Below are positions 1-11,543 of a stretch of 11,880 nucleotides of DNA, piece after piece. The stretch's first letter is position 1. The number at the start of each line of letters is the position of its first letter. Under the pieces are notes generated by a model, which was given only the letters and a program-made list of their open reading frames with translations, had not been told where the DNA came from and did not search any database. Origin of the DNA: Trichormus sp. ATA11-4-KO1 (GTDB lineage: Bacteria; Cyanobacteriota; Cyanobacteriia; Cyanobacteriales; Nostocaceae); assembly GCA_019358915.1 (NCBI GenBank), contig JAHHIM010000069.1, positions 1-11,880 on the forward strand, in the 5' to 3' direction. Position numbers and translations under genes: made by a program.

Positions 1-124
1 GTCCATTTTCTTCTTCCAAATGGACAATGGCTTTATTCTTTTCTTAACGAAGTTATAAGTATTTCAGTCTGCAACCTGTCCATTTTCTTCTTCCAAACCT
101 GTCCAAAATCTTCTTCAAGTCACA
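1..124 (-). mobile_element. End of a Tn7/Mu/IS21-like DDE transposon; the element body lies left of the window
   Basis: The minus strand from 124 reads TGTGACTTGAAGAAGATTTTGGACAGGTTTGGAAGAAGAAAATGGACAGG. There are three copies of TGTCCAwwwTCTTCTTCmAA (1-20, 77-97, 100-118); 1-20 is identical to 78-97 and the two terminal copies are 23 bp apart. The TGT terminus falls at the point where ORF 120-461 stops abruptly. Confidence 0.65.
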
Positions 125-461
125 CTATTAAATAATTCACATGGCGGTGAGTATATCCAAACCTATCCCGGCAATACTCCTCAAATGTGCGATGTGTGGA
201 ACGGTACAGTCTGCGATCGCGTAACTCAGATAGCGCTTTCCCCGCTTCATAGAACGCCTTCTCTACTTTTCGTTCCAGGTGCAAGCGATCACCCTGCTCT
301 TGCTCGGTTAGTTCTGGAACTTCAACAGCAGACACATCAATGGTTACTGAGGCTGGATCTTCTTGAAGGGAGATATCCTCATTTGTGGAGTTAGCTGCTA
401 AAGTTGAATTGGTAGATGCGGCAGAGGCGGATTTATTGCGCTTGTGGGGTTGTTTGTTCAT
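120..461 (-). pseudogene. N-terminal part of a conserved cyanobacterial plasmid-type hypothetical protein, truncated by the transposon end
   Basis: Motif LERKVEKAFYEAGKALSELRDRRLYRSTHRTFEEYCRDRFG resembles a common cyanobacterial plasmid family whose members I recall being longer. GAGGTGG RBS lies upstream of the ATG. The stop TGA (122-120) is supplied by the transposon end. Confidence 0.65.
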
Positions 462-554
462 ACGTCCACCTCTTTTGGTTCAGTGGCGTTTACTCAGAGT
501 AGGCTGCAAAGGTATGCGGAAACTGTAGGTAGTTGCAATCGCATAACAAGAAAG

Positions 555-827
555 ATGAATAGAAAAAGCAAAGCTTTATACCTAAGACTACCTACTCAAA
601 CAGTTGTACATCAAACAATGCTTGGTAATATCCCAGGCCGTAAAATTGAAAACGACTGGAGATTTTTGAAAGTGGCTATTGACGACTGGCTACGTTCAAA
701 AAGTGGTCGGGCTGTTCTACTTCAACAAGCAGGCGCTTTAATAGATGATCATACTCTCTCAGATTTGAGAGCAAAAATTTACCAGGATAGGGAGCGTTCT
801 GAAGTCGATGGGGAGTCTGTCGATTAA
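555..827 (+). CDS. Excisionase-like HTH (HTH_17-type) protein, putative antitoxin; possibly 5'-truncated
   Basis: YLRLPTQTV...GNIPGRKIENDWRFLKVAIDDWL fits the wing/HTH_17 pattern. The stop overlaps the PIN start (TAATG at 825-829). The usual first helix (LTxEEAA) is missing. ATG 555 is preferred over 444, which overlaps the opposite gene. Confidence 0.65.
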   Translation: MNRKSKALYLRLPTQTVVHQTMLGNIPGRKIENDWRFLKVAIDDWLRSKSGRAVLLQQAGALIDDHTLSDLRAKIYQDRERSEVDGESVD

Positions 828-1105
828 TGTATTTGCTTGATACCGACACCCTCACTCATCTTTATGCTGGACAGCCAAATGTAATTGAGCGATTAAGGTC
901 TGTAGATGATCCAGACGTTGGTATTACCATTATTACGAAAGGTGAAGTTTTACGTGGACGGATTGACTACCTTCTCAAAGCTCAGACGGGTGCAGATTTA
1001 CTTAAAGCACAGTCGCTTTTGTTTCGTAGCGAAGAACTGCTCAATCAACTTTTAATCGTCCCAGTTAGTCAGGCAGCATCCGAACAGTTTGAACGACTGC
1101 GTATC
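827..1105 (+). pseudogene. VapC-like PIN-domain toxin, 3'-truncated (the ORF reads through foreign AT-rich and IS DNA to 1276)
   Basis: MYLLDTDTL (first PIN Asp) and ITIITKGEVLRG (conserved Glu) are present. After FERLR the sequence becomes unrelated, and the C-terminal D-x-x-I-A and T-x-N/D motifs are absent. Confidence 0.8.
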
Positions 1106-1163
1106 ATCATTATTTTCAGTGATTTTATGATTAGTTATCCAATTATTTTGGTAGATAATTTCC

Positions 1164-1468
1164 GGTTCTACCGATCCCCTTATGAAAAAAAAGATATTTT
1201 AACTGAAAAAAATGGCTATAAATTAACAAAAATATATAGCCATAACACAAGCATGATAAAGGTTTATGGGTTTTAAAATATACTAAACTTGTGAGAGAAT
1301 ACAAGTAAATTAGCCAGAAATTAAATTTTAGGTACTAGCTATGAAGTTCTCCGTAGAGCAAATTCTGAAGATTAGGATATGGTTTCCGCAATTTTGCAAA
1401 TTTTAGATTACGCTGCTTATTATCTTGGCACTTTAGTATTAAATCTCCATAAGGGGATCGGTAGAACC
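1164..1468 (+). mobile_element. 305-bp internally deleted mini-ISL3 (MITE-like)
   Basis: Perfect 21-bp terminal IRs GGTTCTACCGATCCCCTTATG (1164-1184, and reverse complement at 1448-1468). It holds the 5' UTR and the first 9 codons (MKFSVEQIL, ATG 1341) of the ISL3 transposase, joined to ~100 bp of presumed right end. Confidence 0.85.
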
Positions 1469-1939
1469 AGATATTTCATCTATACCTAGACGTTTTATTT
1501 CACTTAAGTCAATTCTTATCTCTGATTCTAAATAATCTAGCATTGATTGAATTTCTGATTCACTTAAATCATTTTTCTCTGCCACACTACGAATATTACT
1601 GTCTAACACTTGTTTCACTATTTCTGCCGCAAATCTTTTAGTATATCCTCGTTGTTTATCGACAAAATCTAAATTCTCACTAAATAGTTTTTGACAATTT
1701 TTACATCTAAATTGACGACGGTCAATTCTTAATATTACTTGCTGATTACTCCAAGGCAAGTCCTTAATATTACGCCAATGATGTTGATGTATACTATGAC
1801 TAGTTTTACCACATCTTGGACATTTAGAAGATTTGGATTCAGCTTGTATTTCTATGATTAATCCTAAGCCTTCAATCTCTTGGCAATTTAATACTTTTAC
1901 CCCTGGTAAATTCAGAATTTGCTCTACGGAGAACTTCAT
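1439..1939 (-). pseudogene. ISL3 transposase N-terminal fragment (zinc finger, HTH, first catalytic Asp)
   Basis: CPRCG...H...RQFRCKNC zinc finger, then YTKRF, then LGIDEIS. The last residues GSTDPLMEI are translated IR and element sequence. Confidence 0.9.
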
Positions 1940-2116
1940 AGCTAGTACCTAAAATTTAATTTCTGGCTAATTTACTTGTATTCTCTCACAAGTTTAGTAT
2001 ATTTTAAAACCCATAAACCTTTATCATGCTTGTGTTATGGCTATATATTTTTGTTAATTTATAGCCATTTTTTTCAGTTAAAATATCTTTTTTTTCATAA
2101 GGGGATCGGTAGAACC
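1469..2116 (-). mobile_element. Truncated ISL3-family IS (left end plus transposase 5' portion)
   Basis: IRL at 2096-2116. Bases 1911-2116 are the reverse complement of 1164-1369. The element is cut at 1469 by the IRR of the mini-element. Confidence 0.9.
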
Positions 2117-2385
2117 GAATCTCCTCACTGTCCGATAACTACCCCCCATGCCTGCCCAACGGGATATTCCCAACATCGTTACTCGTCCGTTCATCGCTAA
2201 CATGGCCACGATAATCTGGCTCAACTGTCGCATCGTCGTCACTTTTATTTCTGGTAGTAGGCATTGCAACAGTGTTAGGATGTCGAACATGGGCTGTTTG
2301 TGGCTTTCGAGTTGTTGTTTTGGAAGACTATAACTCTACTACATCAGCCCTCTCTCTTCATACTCTTTTTTTGGCTAAGGTATTG
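2117..2385 (-). mobile_element. Left end and first ~58 codons of an IS4/IS701-like DDE transposase element, cut by ISL3
   Basis: The minus strand from 2385 begins CAATACCTTAGCCAAAA, an IS-type IR. The ORF from 2290, MFDILTLLQCLLP...GRVTMLGISRW...GGSYRTVRRF, resembles the N-terminus of Nostoc IS4-like transposases and runs into the ISL3 IR at 2116. Confidence 0.7.
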
Positions 2386-2634: not shown

Positions 2635-4227
2635 ATGGATACAAGACCTTACGAGCTATATATTTCACTAGACCATTTTAAAAGTCTTTGGCAGTGTGAA
2701 ACTAATTGGCAGAATGAACTATCGTTACGAGCCACACTTGTGGCGCTTGAACTTTCTTTTTTACTAATCCATGAAACTGCTCAAGATACACGTTCAACAG
2801 TTCGTAAGAAAGAAAGAATTAGTAGATTATTTTCTGGCTGTTGTCAGCAAATAGAGTTGCTGGCAGAGGTATTTGATAGCAAAGTACCTTCTATAAATAT
2901 TTGGTCTAATGAGCAATCAACTAAAACCAATTTTAAAATACTCATTGATTTAGATGAAACAATATTCAAAAAGCTTAAACAATGGAGTTGTTTTTATACA
3001 AGCATTTTAGAAGAGCTTTCATTTAACTTGGGAATTGAACATTACATTAATCAGTTTCAATTTCCAAATATTCTTTATAAAGAAAAACCGATTATCCCTT
3101 ATGATAAATGGATTAAGCCTGATACTATCGCTACTATTTTTCACACCAGAAGTTTTAACCAAGAAGATAAATTATTTGCCACAGTACATCAAGTTACAGA
3201 GTGTTGGTTATGTGTTGCATTGAATTTACTAAAAAGCAGCCAATTGGCAACGCAAGAAGGTAATTTGCACATAGCAACTAATAAGATAAGTAAAGTCTGT
3301 TCTATCATAGATTATCTTGCACAACACATTTTAATTCTAGAAACAATGGTTCTGGCAGACTACCATCCATTACGTGTCAATTTAAGGGATGCCAGTGGTG
3401 CCCAATCAAAGCAGACATTCGATATAGTCAATTTAGCCAAAGCTTTGTTTTTACCTATCACACAGTATTTAAAAGAACATAATTGTTCTTTGATTGATAT
3501 ATATGATACTCCAAATAAGCACATTGATTTATACCAGTACATTGAAGTATTATCATCTTTAGAAACAAGATTAGCTAACTTCTTTTTTTGTCATTATAAA
3601 TTAGCCACACGAATACTTGGTTCAGAAAGCTTAGGCTCACTTGGATTTGAGGTACAGGCTTTGATTAAACGTTTTGTAGAACCAATATATCCAGATTTAG
3701 ATAAAGTTCGTTATCAATATGTTGTTATTACTAATTTCAGGTATGGGCAATACGCAGGTAACTTAATCACTTCTTTAGAAACTATAGACTTAGTTAAAAC
3801 AATTGATGAAGTAGTTAAAGTTGCGGGTTACGTAATTGAGGACACAATCAATAAATACATTAAATCAATTCGTGAACATGATATTGACAGGTGGCTTAGT
3901 CTCTTTGAATTAGATGGTTCTATTGAAGATCCATCTGGTAGTAGAGCATTTAAAGGTCTAAGTGGATTAAAAGTGTATTTTCGAGGTTTTATTAAAATTT
4001 TTGCTTCAGATATTGAAATTAAAAGTAACAACATTTTAATACTCCCAAAGCAAGGAAAAGCCGAATTTAATTGGGAAATTTATACAACACATAAGAATGT
4101 ATCAATTAATTTTTCCGGTTTAGATAAAATTCAATTTTCACAAAACGGAAAGATTAAGAGTATGCAGGTTTTTTATGATCCTAATGTAATATCCCAACAG
4201 TTACTAGCTGCTTTTAGAGAACAATAA
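2635..4227 (+). CDS. Tryptophan 2,3-dioxygenase-like heme protein with an N-terminal degenerate TDO-like repeat and a C-terminal SnoaL/NTF2-like domain (~530 aa; alternative TTG start at 2572)
   Basis: TDO motifs occur in the correct order: DKLFATVHQVTECW (His 3187-3189), LETMVLADYHPLRVNLRDASGAQSKQ (3337-3414), FFFCHYKLATRILG (His 3592-3594), PIYPDLDKVR. The region ~3830-4200, INKYIKSIREHDIDRWLSLFELDGSIEDPSGSRAFKGLSGLKVYF...FSQNGKIKSMQVFYD, fits the SnoaL-like pattern. Confidence 0.8.
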   Translation: MDTRPYELYISLDHFKSLWQCETNWQNELSLRATLVALELSFLLIHETAQDTRSTVRKKERISRLFSGCCQQIELLAEVFDSKVPSINIWSNEQSTKTNFKILIDLDETIFKKLKQWSCFYTSILEELSFNLGIEHYINQFQFPNILYKEKPIIPYDKWIKPDTIATIFHTRSFNQEDKLFATVHQVTECWLCVALNLLKSSQLATQEGNLHIATNKISKVCSIIDYLAQHILILETMVLADYHPLRVNLRDASGAQSKQTFDIVNLAKALFLPITQYLKEHNCSLIDIYDTPNKHIDLYQYIEVLSSLETRLANFFFCHYKLATRILGSESLGSLGFEVQALIKRFVEPIYPDLDKVRYQYVVITNFRYGQYAGNLITSLETIDLVKTIDEVVKVAGYVIEDTINKYIKSIREHDIDRWLSLFELDGSIEDPSGSRAFKGLSGLKVYFRGFIKIFASDIEIKSNNILILPKQGKAEFNWEIYTTHKNVSINFSGLDKIQFSQNGKIKSMQVFYDPNVISQQLLAAFREQ

Positions 4228-4390: not shown

Positions 4391-6145
4391 TTAGAAAAGA
4401 TTACATAGGAGATTTGAGCGAACTTTTTGATGGATAGGAATATTAATGATGAACTCTGTTCCTTTTTTAGATGAAATACATTCCAATGAACCACCATGTT
4501 TTTGAGTAATAATTTCGTAACTAATTGCTAAACCTAAACCAGTTCCTTTACCTATAGGTTTAGTAGTGAAGAAAGGCTCAAATAGCCGCTTTTGCACTTC
4601 AGGGGGTATTCCTTTACCACTATCAATAATTTGTACAATCAATTGCCCCATCTGGGATATTTCAGTGCGGATAAAGATACTACTAGGAGATTGTTTTATT
4701 TCCTGAATACTTCGCCCTATCTCTCCTTCTTCTATTGCATCTATCGCATTACTTAAAAGGTTCATAAATACCTGATTTAGTTGTCCAGCATAACACTCTA
4801 TTAATGGGAGATTGCCATATTCTTTAATAATTTTTATTTCAGGATGATCTGGTTTAGCTTTAAGACGATTTTGCAAAATCATCAGGGTACTTTCAATTCC
4901 TTCATGAATATCAACTGCTTTATATTCCGCCTCATCCATGCGTGAGAAAATTCGCAAAGAAGTTACAATCTGCCTAATACGCTCTGCCCCAATTTTTATT
5001 GATGAGAGTAGTTTTGGTAAATCTTCTATAAGAAAATCAAGGTCTATGGCTTCAGCTTGTTCTTGAATTTCAGGTATAGGATGAAGATAATTTTTTTGAT
5101 AAAGATTGAGCAAGCTAAGTAGTTCTTGTATATAGTCGTGAGCGTGCGTTAAATTACCATAGATAAAATTAACTGGATTATTGATTTCATGAGCAATTCC
5201 TGCGACCAGTTGACCAAGAGACGACATTTTTTCACTCTGAATTAGTTGCGACTGAGTAGACTGTAATTCTTTTAATGTTTTCTCTAATGCCTGAGCTTGT
5301 TGCCGTAGTTGTGCCTCTGATTTTTGTAAAGCTACCTCAGCTTGTTTACGCTCGGTAATATCACGCACAAGTGCCAGTCCATGTGGCATACCATTATATG
5401 TACAACGCGTTCCTGTTACCTCAACATCAATTAACTTTCCATCCTTGCAGATGTTAACTGCCTGGCAATAAAAGTATCCTGTTGTCTTCAGAGTTTCGAT
5501 GTACTTTTCAAACAAATGTAGAGATTTTGGATGGATATAAGCAGTTGGAGAAAGCTCCTTTAATTCCTCCAAAGAATACCCCAACATCCGACAAGTTGCT
5601 GGATTTACTTCAACCAGTTTTCCTGTTTCTAAATCATCAATAAAAATCCCATCATTTACTGCTTCAAAAATACTGTGGTATTGAGCCTGTTGTTGATGCA
5701 ACGTTTCTTCTATTTGTTTTTGTTCTGTGATATCACTACAAACAATTAGCCCTCCTCTCAAATTCCCCTCTGCATCTTTAATTGGACTCCCATTAATCTT
5801 TAACCATACGCATTCTGGTGCTTGAACATTACAAACAAATATTTTCATATCTTTGCAAGTCTCACCCCGAATTGCCTTCGATAGAGGTAGTTCATTTGTA
5901 GCAAAAGGCGTTACCCGATCAGGCATAAGCCATGTATATTGTTGTGCCCATTCTTCCTGTCGGGTATTTATTGAACCATCACCAAACATTTGTACTGCCG
6001 CCGAATTAAATACCAGAATTTTTCCTTGCTCGTCGGCAACAATTACCCCATCATTCATGGAGTTTAAAATTAAATGCGAAAGGTCATCTTTTTGACCTAC
6101 ATTTGAAATTTGACTAGTACATTTATCTTGCTGCTGGGGCATCAT
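4391..6145 (-). CDS. Cytoplasmic PAS-PAS sensor histidine kinase (HisKA + HATPase_c)
   Basis: Two PAS domains end in SDITE and RDITE. A coiled coil follows, then H-box LGQLVAGIAHEINNP (His319, 5189-5191), N-box QVFMNLLSNAIDA, G1 DSGKGI, F-box LFEPFFTTK and G2 GTGLGL. No transmembrane segment or receiver domain is seen. Confidence 0.95.
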   Translation of the reverse strand: MMPQQQDKCTSQISNVGQKDDLSHLILNSMNDGVIVADEQGKILVFNSAAVQMFGDGSINTRQEEWAQQYTWLMPDRVTPFATNELPLSKAIRGETCKDMKIFVCNVQAPECVWLKINGSPIKDAEGNLRGGLIVCSDITEQKQIEETLHQQQAQYHSIFEAVNDGIFIDDLETGKLVEVNPATCRMLGYSLEELKELSPTAYIHPKSLHLFEKYIETLKTTGYFYCQAVNICKDGKLIDVEVTGTRCTYNGMPHGLALVRDITERKQAEVALQKSEAQLRQQAQALEKTLKELQSTQSQLIQSEKMSSLGQLVAGIAHEINNPVNFIYGNLTHAHDYIQELLSLLNLYQKNYLHPIPEIQEQAEAIDLDFLIEDLPKLLSSIKIGAERIRQIVTSLRIFSRMDEAEYKAVDIHEGIESTLMILQNRLKAKPDHPEIKIIKEYGNLPLIECYAGQLNQVFMNLLSNAIDAIEEGEIGRSIQEIKQSPSSIFIRTEISQMGQLIVQIIDSGKGIPPEVQKRLFEPFFTTKPIGKGTGLGLAISYEIITQKHGGSLECISSKKGTEFIINIPIHQKVRSNLLCNLF

Positions 6146-6790: not shown

Positions 6791-7896
6791 CCCTCTTCTG
6801 TCACTTTCCGAAATAAGCAATTAGTAAAGAAGCTAAATCATCCAGAAGCATAACAGGGTTTAAATTGATTCATTGCGGCAATTAAATGATTAAATCCAAG
6901 TAACAAATGTGAATTAGGGAAAATACTAAACCAGGGATAAATTAACCAAAATAGTCAAAGTGGTTGGATAATGAGACGCAGATTATTTAAAGTATTTTTC
7001 CATCCGGATTCATGGTTCCATTGTGGATGATTAGAAAAATCCACATTACTATTTTCTTGTGCTTCAGTCTCAAATTGACGAGATTGATTGCAGCCTAAGA
7101 AGACTGAAGAATTTAAACTAATCATCGTATAAACGCTAAAAATAATCTCCCACCATCTCTCAATATGTTGGAAATTAGTGAACCGATAATCTGTCCATCC
7201 CAGTTCCTGCTTACACTGTCGAAAACCATATTCTACCCAGGTTCTTAATCCATACAGGTCACCCAAAGTCTTCTTCAGATTTCCTTGAAGATTTGTCATT
7301 ATGAAAGAAGTAGAATTCTCTGGCATGGTTTCTGGGTCAGTAGTTAGTTCCCAGTAAGTTATGGTTCTTTTTTCACCATAAATTATTTCTCGGATATATC
7401 TGGTCTCTGATTTTTGATTACTAAATTTCCCACACTTCCTAAATATTGTCTAGCTACATAATCAGTCTTTTTACCTTTTTTTCTATCTCCGGTTTCATCT
7501 ATTACTACTGTAATCGCCTGACCATTCAATGCTTGCTTGAGTTTATTTAATCTTCGTTGTTTCAATTCATCTACTGACCAATCTGAATTAGCTAGAAAAT
7601 GATGTAATGACTGGGCTGATTTTATACTTACAACCTTCGCTATCTCTGCTAATGACTTCCTTTTTATCGTTGATATGATTCCCAAGTGTAAATATTTAAA
7701 GCACTCATAATTTCTTACTTCCTTAAATAGGTCTTTATACTCTGCACAATATTCATCTATGATGGCAACTGTTGGGTGAGCATCTCTTGCTAAATGTTTG
7801 AGGATTTGTAACTCTACATCCATTGCCCTACTTACCTTTCAGGGTTTTATTTTTTTATTCTTTTATTCAGAATACCCGGAGAGTGACAGAAGAGGG
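6791..7896 (-). mobile_element. IS701-family element with an internal deletion (1106 bp)
   Basis: Terminal IRs CCCTCTTCTGTCACTTTCCG (6791-6810) and CGGAGAGTGACAGAAGAGGG (7877-7896) match at 19/20. The flanks are TTAT and TTAA. Confidence 0.9.
6838..7823 (-). pseudogene. IS701-family transposase pseudogene
   Basis: Motifs QSLHHFL, IDETGDRKKG, VARQYLG and LYGLRTWVEYGFRQCKQELGW. A frameshifting deletion at ~7425 fuses YLGSVG directly to FSNQKSETRYIREIIYG. After an in-frame TGA at 6955-6957 the frame continues (LFWLIYPW...CYASG*) to 6838. Confidence 0.9.
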
Positions 7897-8180: not shown

Positions 8181-11100
8181 TTACACAGTCACAAACGAAT
8201 TGGCAGTCAAGGTAGTGGTGTTTACCCCAGTCACAATTGCCAGAGTTTCATCACCAAATCGAATAGTGTTGCCTTCCAGGGATATCTGACCAAATGCCAG
8301 ACCGTTCACTAGTCCGATGAAGTCGGTGTTAACGCGAAAGTCTGTGATGGTATCCGTACCCTGCCCAGTTGCCAGGACGAAGGTATCGCGGTTATTACCG
8401 CCATTGAGAATATCGTCGCCGATTCCTCCCCAGAGGAAGTCATTGCCATTACCGCCATTGAGAAGGTCGTTGCCTTCCTGACCAAAGAGGGAGTCATTGC
8501 CATTACCGCCATTGAGAAGGTCGTTGCCGATTCCTCCTCTGAGGATGTCCTTGCCGTTGCCTCCAGAAATGGTGTCATTTCCGGCACCTCCAAAGATTTG
8601 GTCATCGCCATTGCCACCGGAGAGGGTGTCATCCCCCAAGCCACCAGAGAGAGTGTCATCTCCATTTCGGCCGGATAATCTGTCGTTATCTGCGCTACCG
8701 ACGATGCGGTCGTCGTTTCTTCTAGGTTTGGTGCCATCGATGGCGATCGCCGCCAGAATGGGGTCATGGTCACTGCCGCGATCAGGCAAGTCAGGAAACT
8801 CAGCATTGACATGAACCGCGTCAAATTCAGCTCCGGCTAGGAGGTTACCTGTGACGAAGATGTGGTCGAGGGGCGTTAGGTTGCCATTGGAGAACTGGAA
8901 ACTATAGCGTTCTAGTTCAGGCAATGTGTCGGTTAAGTTGAATAGCACTTGCTGGCCACCGTTCACGGTACCTTCCGCAAACGCATCCCATTCTTCATAG
9001 TCAAACCCGTTCCAGTCACCAGCCACAACAACCTTCGCATCTGGATTCCCAGCCAAAATACTATCCACAAAGGCATTGATTTCGGCTGCTTGTTCACTGC
9101 GAGCATCGGAACCACCGCGAATCACAGGCTGGATGTTACCGAAGTTTTCAATTCCGCCTGCGTTGTTGTGGACGCTGACCACCGTAACAGTTTCGCCATT
9201 GAAGACGAAGTCAGCCACCAGAGGCAGACGACTGCTTTCAAAGACGTTGTTTCCTGGGATACCATCTTGTTGGGTCGCTGGATCGCTGATGGGACGCAGG
9301 CTACCTTCAACCAGGTCTACTCGCGCTGGATTGTAAAGGAAGGCTGTACGGATGTTTCCGCCTGGTTCTCCACCATTGGTATCATCCGCAATAAAGGGGT
9401 TATCGATGAATTCATAGGTTGGCCCGCCATTGGCGGCGATCGCATCCACTAATCGTTGCAGTGTCACATCCGCCGCAAATACATCCGTGGCTCCACTTTC
9501 ATCTGCCGCCCCGTCATTGTCCTGAATCTCTTGCAGGGCAACTATATCAGGCGTATTTAGGTTATTGATAATCTGTTTAGCGATGGTATCGAATCGGCCA
9601 TCGGCGATATCCGAATCGCCCCCAACACTACCACCATCATTGGGGTCAAGGTTCAGCACGTTGTAGGCAGCAATCAACAGGCGATCGTCAGCACGTTGCA
9701 GATTGGTTACTTCAGGCTCTATTTCATTGCGTGTCACCGTAATCGGCTCTGTAGGCAGCAGTTCGTAAACGGTTCCCGCGTAGGAGAGAATGCCAGTTAC
9801 ATCCCCTAGGGAGGAGCCTTGAGGAATAATGGTATTGAAATCGTCGCCCAGATCAGTTAAAGCTCTAGCAAAATCAACCTCAATGCGCTCTGGATTGACA
9901 TCGGCAGTGAAAATATCGGTTGCGCCAACCCCAATGGTGACTCCATTGCGATCGTTGAGGCTATTGGACGACGCTCCCCCGTCAACCACCACAATTGCCG
10001 AGTCATCGTTGAAGGAAAAGCCAGGGCCGCCCGGAGGCGCAGACGACTGCACCACCAACGCATCATTGAGCGTCACTAGCATCCCTTCTAGAGATTCATA
10101 AAAGTCAATGCCGTCTTGTTCGGGGTCAAAGTTGGTATTGCCAACTTCCGGCAGGTTGAGGTTAATGGGGCCACCTGCTGCCACAAACTCCCCAGAGGTA
10201 GGAATTCCTTGACTTAAATCAACCCCAAACTCATCGGGGCTAACGACAAATTCGTTGGGTACGGTTCGACCACCTTGTCCCAGGACAACAGGTGCAGGTA
10301 GGTCAGCAGTGTCATTGAGTACAGTAACCTGGGGATTGGCAATTTGGGTTAATCCCAGTCCACCAGTGACTAATTCTTCAACCACACCAATGACTTCGAC
10401 TTCATTGCCAATGATGAAACTGGCTGCATCGGCACTTTCGACAAAGATGGCATCCGAGGTAGCATCATTACCGTCGCCCACAGCATCCTGTACATAGAAT
10501 CCGTTGGTAGCAATCGCGGTGATGACTCCGGTGGTTCTGACGGTTTGGCTGACCAAGGGAGACACATGACCCGCACCCTGAATCTCAGGAATTGAGGCAT
10601 CAATCGGATCACCCAGCACGGGATTTGCAGGTATCCCTGGAGTGTCATCAATCCCGAATGTGAATTGACCAATGACAAAATCTCCGGTGATATCAGGATC
10701 GCGGAACACTAAACCAGGCACAAAGTTGCCATCAGGTCCAACCTGGGTATCGCTATAAACCAGGTCGCCGCTACCAACCGTTTCAATTAAAGCAACGCTA
10801 TCCACAATGGAGTCCCACGGTGTGATATCCAGAATGCCATCGTCATTAGTATCTAAGTCTTGACCATCAGTACCTGTAAAGTTGCTGACTAACAGATGGG
10901 TCACATTGTCACTGTTTTCAAAATTCAGCAAGCCACCCGGTGAACCAGACGGCCCAACCAAGTCGAGGGTGGCCACAAAGGGATTTGTGTCTTCGCCCGC
11001 AGCAAACAGACCGTCTGCCTGAATTGCTTGACCATCAAGTTCGACAAAGGCTTCAGTTACGCCGCTACCGCCTTCGGCGCTATCGCCAATCACGATATAG

Positions 11101-11213
11101 GTGAGATTATCCAGCGAAGTTCCAGGAGTACCTCCCAGCTCAAAAAACTCACCCACATCCACACCGGGTTGATCGATACGGATTTCGTTGATCATGATTT
11201 TTTCGGTAGTCAT
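8181..11213 (-). CDS. ExeM/NucH-like extracellular endonuclease: lamin-tail-like domain, OB-fold, EEP (DNase I-like) domain and RTX repeats (~1010 aa)
   Basis: AAGGAGAG RBS precedes ATG 11213. N-terminal INEIRID...EFFEL; SIPEIQG...TTGVITAIATNGFYVQD...SDAIFV; ESLEGMLV; NPERI. EEP motifs YNVLNL, ALQEIQD, AGDWN, LDHIFV and SDHDPI. No N-terminal signal peptide is seen. Confidence 0.88.
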   Translation of the reverse strand: MTTEKIMINEIRIDQPGVDVGEFFELGGTPGTSLDNLTYIVIGDSAEGGSGVTEAFVELDGQAIQADGLFAAGEDTNPFVATLDLVGPSGSPGGLLNFENSDNVTHLLVSNFTGTDGQDLDTNDDGILDITPWDSIVDSVALIETVGSGDLVYSDTQVGPDGNFVPGLVFRDPDITGDFVIGQFTFGIDDTPGIPANPVLGDPIDASIPEIQGAGHVSPLVSQTVRTTGVITAIATNGFYVQDAVGDGNDATSDAIFVESADAASFIIGNEVEVIGVVEELVTGGLGLTQIANPQVTVLNDTADLPAPVVLGQGGRTVPNEFVVSPDEFGVDLSQGIPTSGEFVAAGGPINLNLPEVGNTNFDPEQDGIDFYESLEGMLVTLNDALVVQSSAPPGGPGFSFNDDSAIVVVDGGASSNSLNDRNGVTIGVGATDIFTADVNPERIEVDFARALTDLGDDFNTIIPQGSSLGDVTGILSYAGTVYELLPTEPITVTRNEIEPEVTNLQRADDRLLIAAYNVLNLDPNDGGSVGGDSDIADGRFDTIAKQIINNLNTPDIVALQEIQDNDGAADESGATDVFAADVTLQRLVDAIAANGGPTYEFIDNPFIADDTNGGEPGGNIRTAFLYNPARVDLVEGSLRPISDPATQQDGIPGNNVFESSRLPLVADFVFNGETVTVVSVHNNAGGIENFGNIQPVIRGGSDARSEQAAEINAFVDSILAGNPDAKVVVAGDWNGFDYEEWDAFAEGTVNGGQQVLFNLTDTLPELERYSFQFSNGNLTPLDHIFVTGNLLAGAEFDAVHVNAEFPDLPDRGSDHDPILAAIAIDGTKPRRNDDRIVGSADNDRLSGRNGDDTLSGGLGDDTLSGGNGDDQIFGGAGNDTISGGNGKDILRGGIGNDLLNGGNGNDSLFGQEGNDLLNGGNGNDFLWGGIGDDILNGGNNRDTFVLATGQGTDTITDFRVNTDFIGLVNGLAFGQISLEGNTIRFGDETLAIVTGVNTTTLTANSFVTV
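8376..8699 (-). repeat. 12 tandem RTX (hemolysin-type Ca2+-binding) nonapeptide repeats, 27-bp period
   Basis: GSADNDRLS GRNGDDTLS GGLGDDTLS GGNGDDQIF GGAGNDTIS GGNGKDILR GGIGNDLLN GGNGNDSLF GQEGNDLLN GGNGNDFLW GGIGDDILN GGNNRDTFV. Confidence 0.95.
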
Positions 11214-11543
11214 TATGCTCTCCTTCAAGTCAGTGAACATGACACACACCTTTGTTGCAAGGACTCTAAAATCTCTGGCAGCAAAGCTAAGGGTATACCC
11301 CCATCAGCATGAGTATGTGAATCTATTGGCACTTAGTTTAAAGTAAGTACGGCAGGTAAAACAGTCCAAACAAAAATATCACTTGTATCTGAAGCTTGGC
11401 TTAAGAAGAATTTGAATTTAGGTTATGATTTGGGCTTTGTTGCATGAAAGAAAAAAAGAGATACTTTTCCTGGGTTGGAGCAGTAATTAATCTTCAACCT
11501 TGTAGCTATCTGGCTTGCCCAAGTGAATCATGCGGTTAAGTGG

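What the first reader, a model, noticed from the sequence alone, without database searches (positions are those of the whole stretch)
2635..4227. TDO-like heme oxygenase fused to a SnoaL/NTF2-like domain: a candidate one-gene tryptophan-modifying pathway
Seen: an intact AT-rich ORF keeps the TDO active-site residues at canonical spacing (F-x3-H-Q-x2-E-x-W; Y-x3-R-x7-G-x-Q-S; proximal H-x5-R-x2-G; YPDLxxVR) and carries a ~125-aa SnoaL-like C-terminal domain. Known (recalled from Xanthomonas TDO): these correspond to Phe51/His55, Tyr113/Arg117, the SGFQS loop and His240. TDO-superfamily members such as MarE, TioF/Ecm11 and PrnB tailor Trp in natural-product pathways, and SnoaL/NTF2 folds act as cyclases, isomerases, hydrolases or ligand binders. 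Inference: the fusion may oxidise Trp or an analogue and then cyclise or rearrange the unstable product, giving an indole- or kynurenine-derived pigment, signal or defence molecule. No kynB/kynU lies nearby, which argues against routine catabolism. I know of no characterised protein with this architecture.
Basis: partly seen in the sequence, partly recalled or inferred. Interest (0 to 1): 0.82.

Follow-up and report, generated by a model that had tools for sequence, protein, structure and literature searches.

The report
Self-paired tryptophan oxygenase, plant HSPRO relative
This rare bacterial gene encodes a tryptophan-oxidising heme enzyme that carries a broken copy of itself to cap its own active site, plus an isomerase-like tail, and it is an apparently intact relative of the unexplained plant stress protein HSPRO.

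Summary
In detail: 2635-4227 is an intact 530-aa gene (dN/dS about 0.2) with a TDO-fold heme domain and a C-terminal SnoaL/ketosteroid-isomerase (KSI) domain. They are a degenerate second TDO half (HHalign 97%) that keeps the Tyr-x-x-Tyr arm which, in tetrameric TDO, comes from the neighbouring subunit. The enzyme is therefore most likely a single-chain pseudo-dimer. Residues 1-385 align end to end with land-plant HSPRO/Hs1pro-1 (HHalign 99.95%). There the heme-ligand His is Tyr in 115 of 116 sequences, while green-algal relatives keep it and several are fused to a kynureninase-like domain. The family is scattered across several prokaryotic phyla, rare in this order (2 of 401 genomes) and not linked to kynU. 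Best mechanism (inferred): O2-dependent ring opening of tryptophan to N-formylkynurenine, then enolisation and cyclisation or elimination by the KSI-like Tyr/Asp/Asp site. Monooxygenation, plain TDO activity and a sensor role remain open. No description was found in the open-access library. Verdict: a new variant of the heme aromatic oxygenase superfamily.

The parts
2635..4227 (+). Intact gene, 530 aa: degenerate TDO half + catalytic TDO-fold domain + SnoaL/KSI-like domain
   Evidence: dN/dS 0.20-0.25 against 5 close homologues
2635..3039 (+). Residues 1-135 (Hs1pro-1_N): degenerate copy of the N-terminal half of a TDO subunit; Leu35 stands at the distal-His position; no heme-ligand half
   Evidence: HHalign 97.1%, E 5.8e-11 to stand-alone TDO-like proteins; 74.9%, E 2.6e-5 to its own catalytic domain at a 150-aa offset; reversed controls 1.2% or less
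2647..2664 (+). Capping arm P5-Y6-x-x-Y9-I10, equivalent to TDO Tyr42/Tyr45/Leu46 (human) of the neighbouring subunit
   Evidence: Y6 64/65, Y9 62/65, I10 57/65; model residue 1 aligns from about residue 120 of IDO1; PMC5071832 passage
3082..3789 (+). Catalytic TDO-superfamily (HDAO) domain, residues about 150-385
   Evidence: VIA Z 18.5 MarE (rmsd 4.0, 229 aligned), Z 17.8 TDO 2nox (rmsd 2.6, 209 aligned)
3175..3207 (+). F181...H185-Q-x2-E189-x-W191 (TDO Phe51/His55 helix)
   Evidence: F 64/65, H 65/65
3361..3408 (+). Y243/R247 (substrate carboxylate site) and D252-A-S-G-A-Q-S258 loop
   Evidence: Y 61/65, R 64/65; alignment to TDO
3592..3594 (+). His320, predicted proximal heme ligand; Tyr in land-plant HSPRO
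   Evidence: 65/65 in the fusion family, 18/18 in eukaryotic relatives, Tyr in 115/116 plants
3634..3648 (+). JK loop G334-S-L-G-F338, in register with TDO GTGGS; matches neither TDO nor MarE
3817..4209 (+). SnoaL/NTF2 domain with Y408, D432, D497 aligned to KSI Y14, D38, D99
   Evidence: triad kept in 40 of 65
4391..6145 (-). Convergent PAS-PAS histidine kinase gene; linked in the window, L001, L003 and L005, not in L002 or L004; a functional link is unproven

Best explanation
A single-chain, pseudo-dimeric tryptophan oxygenase with a built-in acid/base tailoring domain. An ancestral TDO-like gene was duplicated in tandem. Copy 1 (aa 1-135) shrank to its N-terminal arm and dimer-interface helices and lost its heme site; its Y6/Y9/I10 arm closes the indole pocket of copy 2 in cis, as the neighbouring subunit does in TDO (homology shown; placement from the model and conservation). 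Copy 2 binds heme through His320 and holds L-Trp or a near analogue through His185, Tyr243/Arg247 and Ser335, then inserts O2 across C2-C3 to give N-formylkynurenine (inferred from conserved residues). The KSI-like domain then enolises the new aryl ketone with Asp432 as base and Tyr408/Asp497 as oxyanion hole (roles recalled from KSI). That would drive either Camps ring closure onto the formamide, giving a 3-substituted 4-quinolone, or loss of ammonia to an enone (inferred, least certain step). The product would be a specialised metabolite or signal, not a catabolic intermediate. Odds by step: architecture and HSPRO homology about 0.9; heme oxygenase on a Trp-type substrate about 0.75; whole two-step scheme about 0.45; the quinolone specifically about 0.2.
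For: Internal repeat with controls. The first arm is Tyr-Tyr in 62 of 65 members, the catalytic copy's own arm in only 2 of 65, and that second arm is deleted in some members. In the 1-385 model (pLDDT 94) the IDO-fold chains IDO1, SO4414, IDO2, PrnB 9dfg and SfmD align from model residue 1, whereas TDO chains align from 152-154. The full seven-residue TDO site is kept in 60 of 65. Human TDO with its loop changed to SLGGS still gave about 95% N-formylkynurenine, and MarE is mainly a dioxygenase without ascorbate (PMC12312684). Eukaryotic relatives are fused to a PLP domain with kynureninase-like motifs (KYNU_C E 1.9e-5; kynureninase 1qz9 E 0.027; PLP residues in 13 of 22 rows). KSI triad in 40 of 65; SnoaL domain under purifying selection, dN/dS 0.17-0.29. 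No link to kynU. Oxidative indole cleavage followed by intramolecular aldol closure to a 4-quinolone has been proposed for ZigE (PMC13307353 passages).
Against: No biochemistry exists. The KSI triad is incomplete in 25 of 65 members. Algal and plant relatives lack the SnoaL domain, so it is dispensable for the wider family. No conserved pathway genes flank the gene in 38 loci. The JK loop and the Phe-to-Ala change depart from TDO, so substrate and product may differ. The kynureninase match is weak (E 0.027) and those proteins have Lys in place of Arg247. I could not read model coordinates: the arm placement rests on alignment ranges. Expression in this strain is unknown, and IS debris lies about 350 bp upstream.
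Confidence: 0.45

Rival explanations
1. A self-capped but otherwise plain TDO: it makes N-formylkynurenine only, and the SnoaL domain is a ligand-binding or oligomerisation appendage with no part in the chemistry.
For: All TDO substrate residues are kept. Eukaryotic relatives lack SnoaL and some pair with a kynureninase-like domain. The triad is incomplete in 25 of 65.
Against: 15 of 37 carrier genomes, including all 5 cyanobacteria, show no kynU match at E 1e-20 (some are incomplete MAGs), and 21 of the 22 that have kynU also carry a separate TDO. TIGR03036 scores 76 bits against a cut-off of 390.7. The fusion is kept across phyla.
Confidence: 0.2
2. A MarE-like monooxygenase: one oxygen goes in through an indole epoxide, and the SnoaL domain opens or cyclises it to an oxindole or pyrroloindoline.
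For: MarE is the top structural match, tied with TDO (Z 18.5 against 17.8). D252-A-S-G resembles MarE DATG. Epoxide hydrolases/cyclases SalBIII, MonB, Lsd19 and limonene epoxide hydrolases score Z about 17 on the SnoaL domain. Loop sequence shifts mono- versus dioxygenation (PMC12312684).
Against: By spacing from His320 the loop is G-S-L-G-F, which keeps a hydroxyl at the Thr position (Ser 45, Thr 7 of 65) and lacks MarE's loop Arg. In TDO the epoxide stays at the heme (recalled), so a separate domain would struggle to reach it.
Confidence: 0.17
3. A heme/tryptophan sensor or signal modulator that feeds neighbouring sensor kinases, in the manner of H-NOX or NosP; plant HSPRO would have kept this role.
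For: A sensor gene (PAS kinase, STAS, GGDEF-EAL, GAF kinase) lies within 500 bp in 14 of 39 loci against 7 of 222 control ORFs; 5 of 26 after collapsing lineages. A PAS-HisKA_2 gene follows directly on the same strand in 8 Crocinitomicaceae-type loci whose other flanks differ.
Against: The sensor profiles were seeded from these same neighbours, which inflates the count. None of the 7 Streptomyces loci has a sensor gene. A full catalytic site is conserved. Gene orientation is mostly convergent outside the Crocinitomicaceae group.
Confidence: 0.13
4. An HDAO acting on a non-tryptophan aromatic (Tyr derivative or other indole), like SfmD or TyrH.
For: SfmD appears among structural (Z 10.4) and Atlas (0.84) neighbours; Phe-to-Ala enlarges the pocket.
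Against: His55, Phe51, Tyr113 and Arg117 equivalents and the Tyr-Tyr arm are TDO/MarE features; TDO and MarE score 7-8 Z units higher.
Confidence: 0.05

Closest known systems
Tryptophan 2,3-dioxygenase (TDO/KynA; 2nox, 2nw7, human TDO)
   Same: Fold (Z 17.8, rmsd 2.6 over 209 residues), distal His, carboxylate Tyr/Arg, proximal His, Tyr-x-x-Tyr capping arm.
   Different: The arm comes from a fused degenerate copy in the same chain; loops are DASGAQS and GSLGF rather than PASGFQS and GTGGS; C-terminal SnoaL domain; far below the TIGR03036 cut-off; not with kynU/kynB.
MarE (2-oxindole-forming HDAO)
   Same: Top structural match (Z 18.5), compact core, Asp-Ala-x-Gly loop.
   Different: MarE is a single-copy oligomer with an SLGGR loop whose Arg pairs with Asp124 (PMC11904535); here the loop register differs and there is no Arg; no maremycin-type cluster.
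IDO1/IDO2, PrnB, SfmD (HDAOs with an N-terminal cap domain)
   Same: Active site capped in cis; they align to the model from residue 1 (Z 10.4-13.8).
   Different: Only about 190-207 residues align, at 10-14% identity.
Plant HSPRO1/2, Hs1pro-1 (PF07231 + PF07014)
   Same: Collinear over residues 4-360 (HHalign 99.95%, 346 columns); 29% identity over residues 6-240 to a moss-type HSPRO; arm tyrosines and distal His largely kept.
   Different: Plants have Tyr for His320 (115/116), Lys for Arg247 (114/116), degenerate loops and no SnoaL domain. Plants group with algal relatives, not cyanobacteria.
Ketosteroid isomerase / SnoaL_2 epoxide hydrolases and cyclases (KSI, SalBIII, MonB, TsrD)
   Same: Fold (Z 15-18) and the KSI Tyr14/Asp38/Asp99 positions.
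   Different: 15-20% identity; fused to a heme oxygenase; substrate unknown.

Membership tests
HDAO / TDO superfamily | Four-helix heme core with lid helix | tested here: met
   VIA Z 18.5 MarE, 17.8 TDO, 13.8 IDO1; Foldseek top ranks are all MarE/TDO
HDAO / TDO superfamily | Proximal His at the heme-ligand position | tested here: met
   His320 aligned; 65 of 65
HDAO / TDO superfamily | Binds heme and oxygenates an aromatic amino acid | not testable with these tools
   needs purified protein
Canonical TDO (KynA equivalog) | TIGR03036 over cut-off | tested here: not met
   76.1 bits against 390.7
Canonical TDO (KynA equivalog) | GTGG(S) JK loop and SGFQS loop | tested here: not met
   GSLGF and SGAQS; a GTGG start appears in 2 of 65 among the listed patterns
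Canonical TDO (KynA equivalog) | Linked to kynU/kynB | tested here: not met
   None in own genome. In 21 of 22 kynU-bearing carrier genomes the fusion is on another contig or at least 160 kb away; in one it was not located
Canonical TDO (KynA equivalog) | Homotetramer with the arm supplied in trans | tested here: inconclusive
   Sequence and model favour capping in cis; oligomer state not tested
MarE subgroup | DATG and SLGGR loops with an Asp-Arg pair | tested here: not met
   Asp252 in 42 of 65, but the loop in register is GSLG(F/Y/V) and lacks the Arg in nearly all
HSPRO / Hs1pro-1 family | PF07231 and PF07014 over cut-off, collinear | tested here: met
   43.6 against 25 and 37 against 29.3 bits; HHalign 99.95%
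HSPRO / Hs1pro-1 family | Land-plant clade signature (Tyr for the heme His, Lys for Arg, no SnoaL) | tested here: not met
   a plants + cyanobacteria clade is rejected, p-AU 0.00025
KSI-type SnoaL/NTF2 enzymes | NTF2 fold | tested here: met
   Z 18.1, rmsd 2.2, 123 aligned; Atlas 0.96
KSI-type SnoaL/NTF2 enzymes | Tyr14/Asp38/Asp99 triad | tested here: met
   Y408/D432/D497; 40 of 65 in the family
KSI-type SnoaL/NTF2 enzymes | Isomerase, cyclase or hydrolase activity | not testable with these tools
   needs an assay

The most novel reading that the evidence does not exclude
A one-gene tryptophan-to-4-quinolone synthase (oxidative ring opening plus Camps closure) that makes a diffusible signal read by neighbouring sensor kinases. 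It would be the catalytically intact form of a self-capped TDO lineage that gives green algae an overlooked TDO-kynureninase route and survives in land plants as HSPRO, a Tyr-substituted pseudoenzyme or alternative heme protein that senses tryptophan or its oxidation products.
Probability: 0.15. Interest if true: 0.9.

Novelty: new variant of a known kind. Interest (0 to 1): 0.72.

Why it matters
HSPRO/Hs1pro-1 genes recur in plant defence and stress studies. One paper read here still describes Hs1pro-1 as a leucine-rich membrane receptor (PMC6479909), another only as a regulator of basal resistance (PMC10080060). This gene gives them a concrete fold, an ancestry and a residue-level hypothesis: a self-capped TDO whose heme His became Tyr. 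Heme and tryptophan binding by HSPRO can now be tested directly, with intact bacterial and algal controls. The kynurenine pathway is held to be lost from most green plants (PMC7455551), yet Chlorella, Micractinium and Nannochloris carry an intact TDO-type domain fused to a kynureninase-like domain. The protein is also a natural example of a TDO turned single-chain by duplication, and a candidate new indole-tailoring chemistry. Databases already hint at parts of this: JGI labels one plant HSPRO and several algal relatives 'tryptophan 2,3-dioxygenase', and the domain combination is in precomputed Pfam annotations. That limits the surprise.

Tried and rejected
MarE-like SLGGR loop: first noted, then rejected, because spacing from His320 puts GSLGF on GTGGS. 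Plastid origin of plant HSPRO from this cyanobacterial clade: rejected (p-AU 0.00025); a clade of plants, algae and cyanobacteria was not rejected (p 0.055), and long branches may join plants and algae. A conserved biosynthetic cluster: none found; apart from sensor kinases, clusters shared by 3 or more loci were mostly synteny among Crocinitomicaceae (104 neighbours of 528 ORFs were scanned with Pfam). A natural split form: the Lusitaniella copy is broken by an insertion with 35-nt inverted repeats. Defence system: no PADLOC match. Complex prediction of a Crocinitomicaceae member with its downstream PAS kinase gave no verdict (score 0.00). No RNA holder was listed. Promoter scan was at chance level, 9 against 9.8. 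Foldseek on the full model listed only NTF2-fold entries, nearly all KSI, so residues 1-385 were folded alone. Three look-ups of earlier findings returned nothing. Paper searches that found no description of this architecture or of HSPRO as a TDO: 0 papers; listings only. The library is open-access only, and no supplements were read.

Full report
1. Observation. The window is the whole of contig C69 (11,880 bp) of a 5.97-Mb genome that is 99.9% complete; close homologues come from Nostocales cyanobacteria. ATG 2635 to TAA 4227 gives an uninterrupted 530-aa protein, and homologues start at the same Met. Pfam finds Trp_dioxygenase (154-260, E 7.9e-13) and SnoaL_2 (407-509, E 9e-6, just under cut-off). 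The AlphaFold model (pLDDT 88) matches KSI at Z 18.1, MarE at 17.4 and TDO at 16.8. dN/dS against five close homologues is 0.20-0.25 overall and at most 0.57 in any domain, so the gene is maintained.

2. A family, not a one-off. 25 of 28 homologues carry both TDO and SnoaL domains, and 20 of 28 carry Hs1pro-1_N. The HMMER search of 50% clusters gave 134 hits at E 1e-10. I scanned 76 of the 150 listed, chosen for length and coverage, and 49 have SnoaL_2. 38 loci from named genomes come from Nostocales, Lusitaniella, myxobacteria, Herpetosiphonaceae, Bacteroidota, Streptomyces and archaea. It is patchy: 2 of 401 genomes of this order, counting this one. The gene has 31.5% GC against 41.7%, IS debris on both sides, and two copies in one relative, one near a plasmid Mob gene. 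That points to horizontal spread.

3. The missed domain is a broken TDO. I aligned 65 full-length SnoaL-bearing members (my selection, many from unnamed metagenomes). The profile of residues 1-135 matches a profile of 25 small hits (24 TDO-like; one turned out to be a SnoaL protein and was dropped for later counts) at 97.1%, E 5.8e-11. It matches the protein's own catalytic domain at 74.9%, E 2.6e-5, at an exact 150-residue offset. Reversed and SnoaL controls scored 1.2% or less. The offset pairs Y6 with Y156, Y9 with W159, L35 with H185 and E39 with E189, so copy 1 lacks the distal His and ends before the heme-ligand half. In TDO and MarE the indole pocket is closed by Tyr/Tyr(Val)/Leu from the neighbouring subunit's N-terminal arm (PMC5071832 passages; PMC11904535 passages). 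Here arm 1 is Tyr-Tyr in 62 of 65 members; arm 2 is Tyr-Tyr in 2 of 65 and is missing in some. Stand-alone proteins keep Tyr at the two arm positions in 23 and 22 of 24. In the model of residues 1-385 (pLDDT 94), TDO chains align from residue 152-154. IDO1, SO4414, IDO2, PrnB (9dfg) and SfmD align from residue 1, IDO1 from its residue 120 (Z 13.8, rmsd 2.7, 189 aligned), next to its active-site Tyr126 (PMC6930675 passage). I infer a single-chain pseudo-dimer capped in cis. Only ranges, not coordinates, were available.

4. Catalytic domain. F181, H185, Y243, R247 and H320 are kept in 64, 65, 61, 64 and 65 of 65. It is not a canonical TDO: TIGR03036 gives 76 bits against 390.7, the SGFQS Phe is Ala, and the GTGGS loop reads GSLGF by register from His320. 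I first took this for MarE's SLGGR and then rejected it. Loop sequence tunes the product, but a human TDO SLGGS variant still gave about 95% N-formylkynurenine, and MarE is mainly a dioxygenase without ascorbate (PMC12312684, parts 1-2 of 3 read). Dioxygenation is the default expectation.

5. SnoaL domain. Y408, D432 and D497 align with KSI Y14, D38 and D99; the triad is kept in 40 of 65 and incomplete in 25. KSI enolises ketones with these residues (recalled). N-formylkynurenine is an ortho-formamido aryl ketone, so enolisation could drive Camps closure to a 4-quinolone or loss of ammonia. An analogous cleavage-then-aldol route is proposed for ZigE (PMC13307353 passages). Epoxide hydrolases score within about 1 Z unit of KSI, so the fold does not decide. 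This step is inference.

6. Context. This genome has no kynU over cut-off, no PF04199 match and no other TDO. Of 37 carrier genomes, 22 have kynU. In 21 of these the fusion is on another contig or at least 160 kb away (fragmented assemblies limit this); in one it was not located. 21 of the 22 have a separate TDO, next to kynU in 7 of 7 Streptomyces. So the gene is not the housekeeping route. No pathway genes are conserved around it. Sensor genes lie within 500 bp in 14 of 39 loci against 7 of 222 control ORFs, or 5 of 26 lineages. The profiles were seeded from those neighbours, so this is only a lead.

7. Link to plants and algae. Residues 1-385 align with land-plant HSPRO over 346 columns at 99.95%; BLASTP to a moss-type member gives 29% over residues 6-240. 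Of 120 plant hits I dropped 4 partial ones. In the 116 left, Y6 (115), Y9 (111) and the distal His (98) persist, but His320 is Tyr in 115 and Arg247 is Lys in 114. A sister group keeps His320 in 18 of 18. It is eukaryotic: genes are in pieces with GT/AG-type ends in 7 of 11 loci examined, and named members are Chlorella variabilis, Micractinium, Nannochloris, Trebouxia and Nannochloropsis. 13 of 22 rows examined carry a C-terminal PLP domain with Asp/His/Lys/Trp/Arg intact, weakly like kynureninase. On 47 rows chosen from the 114 of a first quick tree, plants and algae form one group (100/98) apart from the SnoaL family. Plants with cyanobacteria is rejected (p-AU 0.00025); plants, algae and cyanobacteria together is not (p 0.055). 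Long branches may affect this.

8. Known and unknown. It works like TDO/MarE and belongs to the HDAO superfamily by fold and heme ligand. It fails the tests for canonical TDO, the MarE subgroup and the land-plant HSPRO clade. Monomeric capped HDAOs exist (IDO, PrnB: PMC5350241 and PMC11791213 passages), but here the cap is a recognisable TDO half. Searches for HSPRO with tryptophan dioxygenase and for tryptophan dioxygenase with SnoaL returned 0 papers; broader listings showed nothing on it. Subscription journals and supplements were not seen. HSPRO papers read in passages call it a leucine-rich membrane receptor or a basal-resistance regulator. PMC7455551 (passages) holds the kynurenine pathway lost in most green plants. 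Automatic annotation already names some relatives TDO.

9. Verdict. Real, conserved and uncharacterised: a new variant of a known superfamily. The architecture and the HSPRO link are well supported; the two-step chemistry is a testable inference. Interest 0.72.

Noticed in passing
window 1163-2117: ISL3 relics: a perfect 207-nt inverted repeat (1163-1369 and 1911-2117), 21-28-nt element ends at 1163 and 1448-1468, and a truncated ISL3 transposase at 1439-1939 (-). The first copy interrupts the PIN gene.
   Followed up: partly
window 444-1276: HTH_17 gene overlapping a PIN-domain gene, like a toxin-antitoxin pair; the PIN 3' end runs into the IS relic.
   Followed up: no
window 2078-2290, 6955-7326, 7383-7823: DDE transposase fragments on both sides of the oxygenase-kinase pair.
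   Followed up: no
window 8181-11249 (-): 1022-aa nuclease-like protein with RTX calcium-binding repeats; GC 50-53% against 42% for the genome.
   Followed up: no
window 120-461 (-): Unassigned ORF with DNA look-alikes on contigs C38, C28 and C32 (67-87% identity); may be a plasmid-type gene.
   Followed up: no
L007 11026-12214: The Lusitaniella coriacea copy is split by a 1.19-kb insertion with 35-nt terminal inverted repeats.
   Followed up: yes
L001, L005 (junction at window 4230): Nostocales LEGE 11386 has two copies (95% and 90% identity). Both differ from the window by extra DNA just past the stop codon, and one lies near a Mob_Pre plasmid gene.
   Followed up: partly
P0312, P0313, P0303, P0088; L043-L085: Green-algal and other eukaryotic relatives keep the heme His and are fused to a kynureninase-like PLP domain: a possible overlooked kynurenine route in green algae.
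   Followed up: partly
L015, L016, L018, L020, L021, L022, L024, L030 (about 11600-12810): A PAS_3-HisKA_2 kinase gene directly downstream on the same strand in 8 loci whose other flanks vary.
   Followed up: partly
P0074, P0168, P0049, P0167: Further fusions: condensation/PapA-like domains (P0074, P0168); an MFS transporter and a radical SAM domain joined upstream (P0049, P0167; possibly gene-calling artefacts).
   Followed up: no
L004 1921-8738, L006 8828-9835, L025/L028, L036: Single cases of biosynthetic neighbours: PKS genes (Nostoc C117), a terpene synthase (Sorangium), a SnoaL gene plus zinc dehydrogenase, an aldo-keto reductase plus EamA (Streptomyces).
   Followed up: no
ESM Atlas: Clusters of 429-449-aa mostly actinomycete TDO-like proteins score 0.95 to residues 1-385; they may be more self-capped members.
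   Followed up: no
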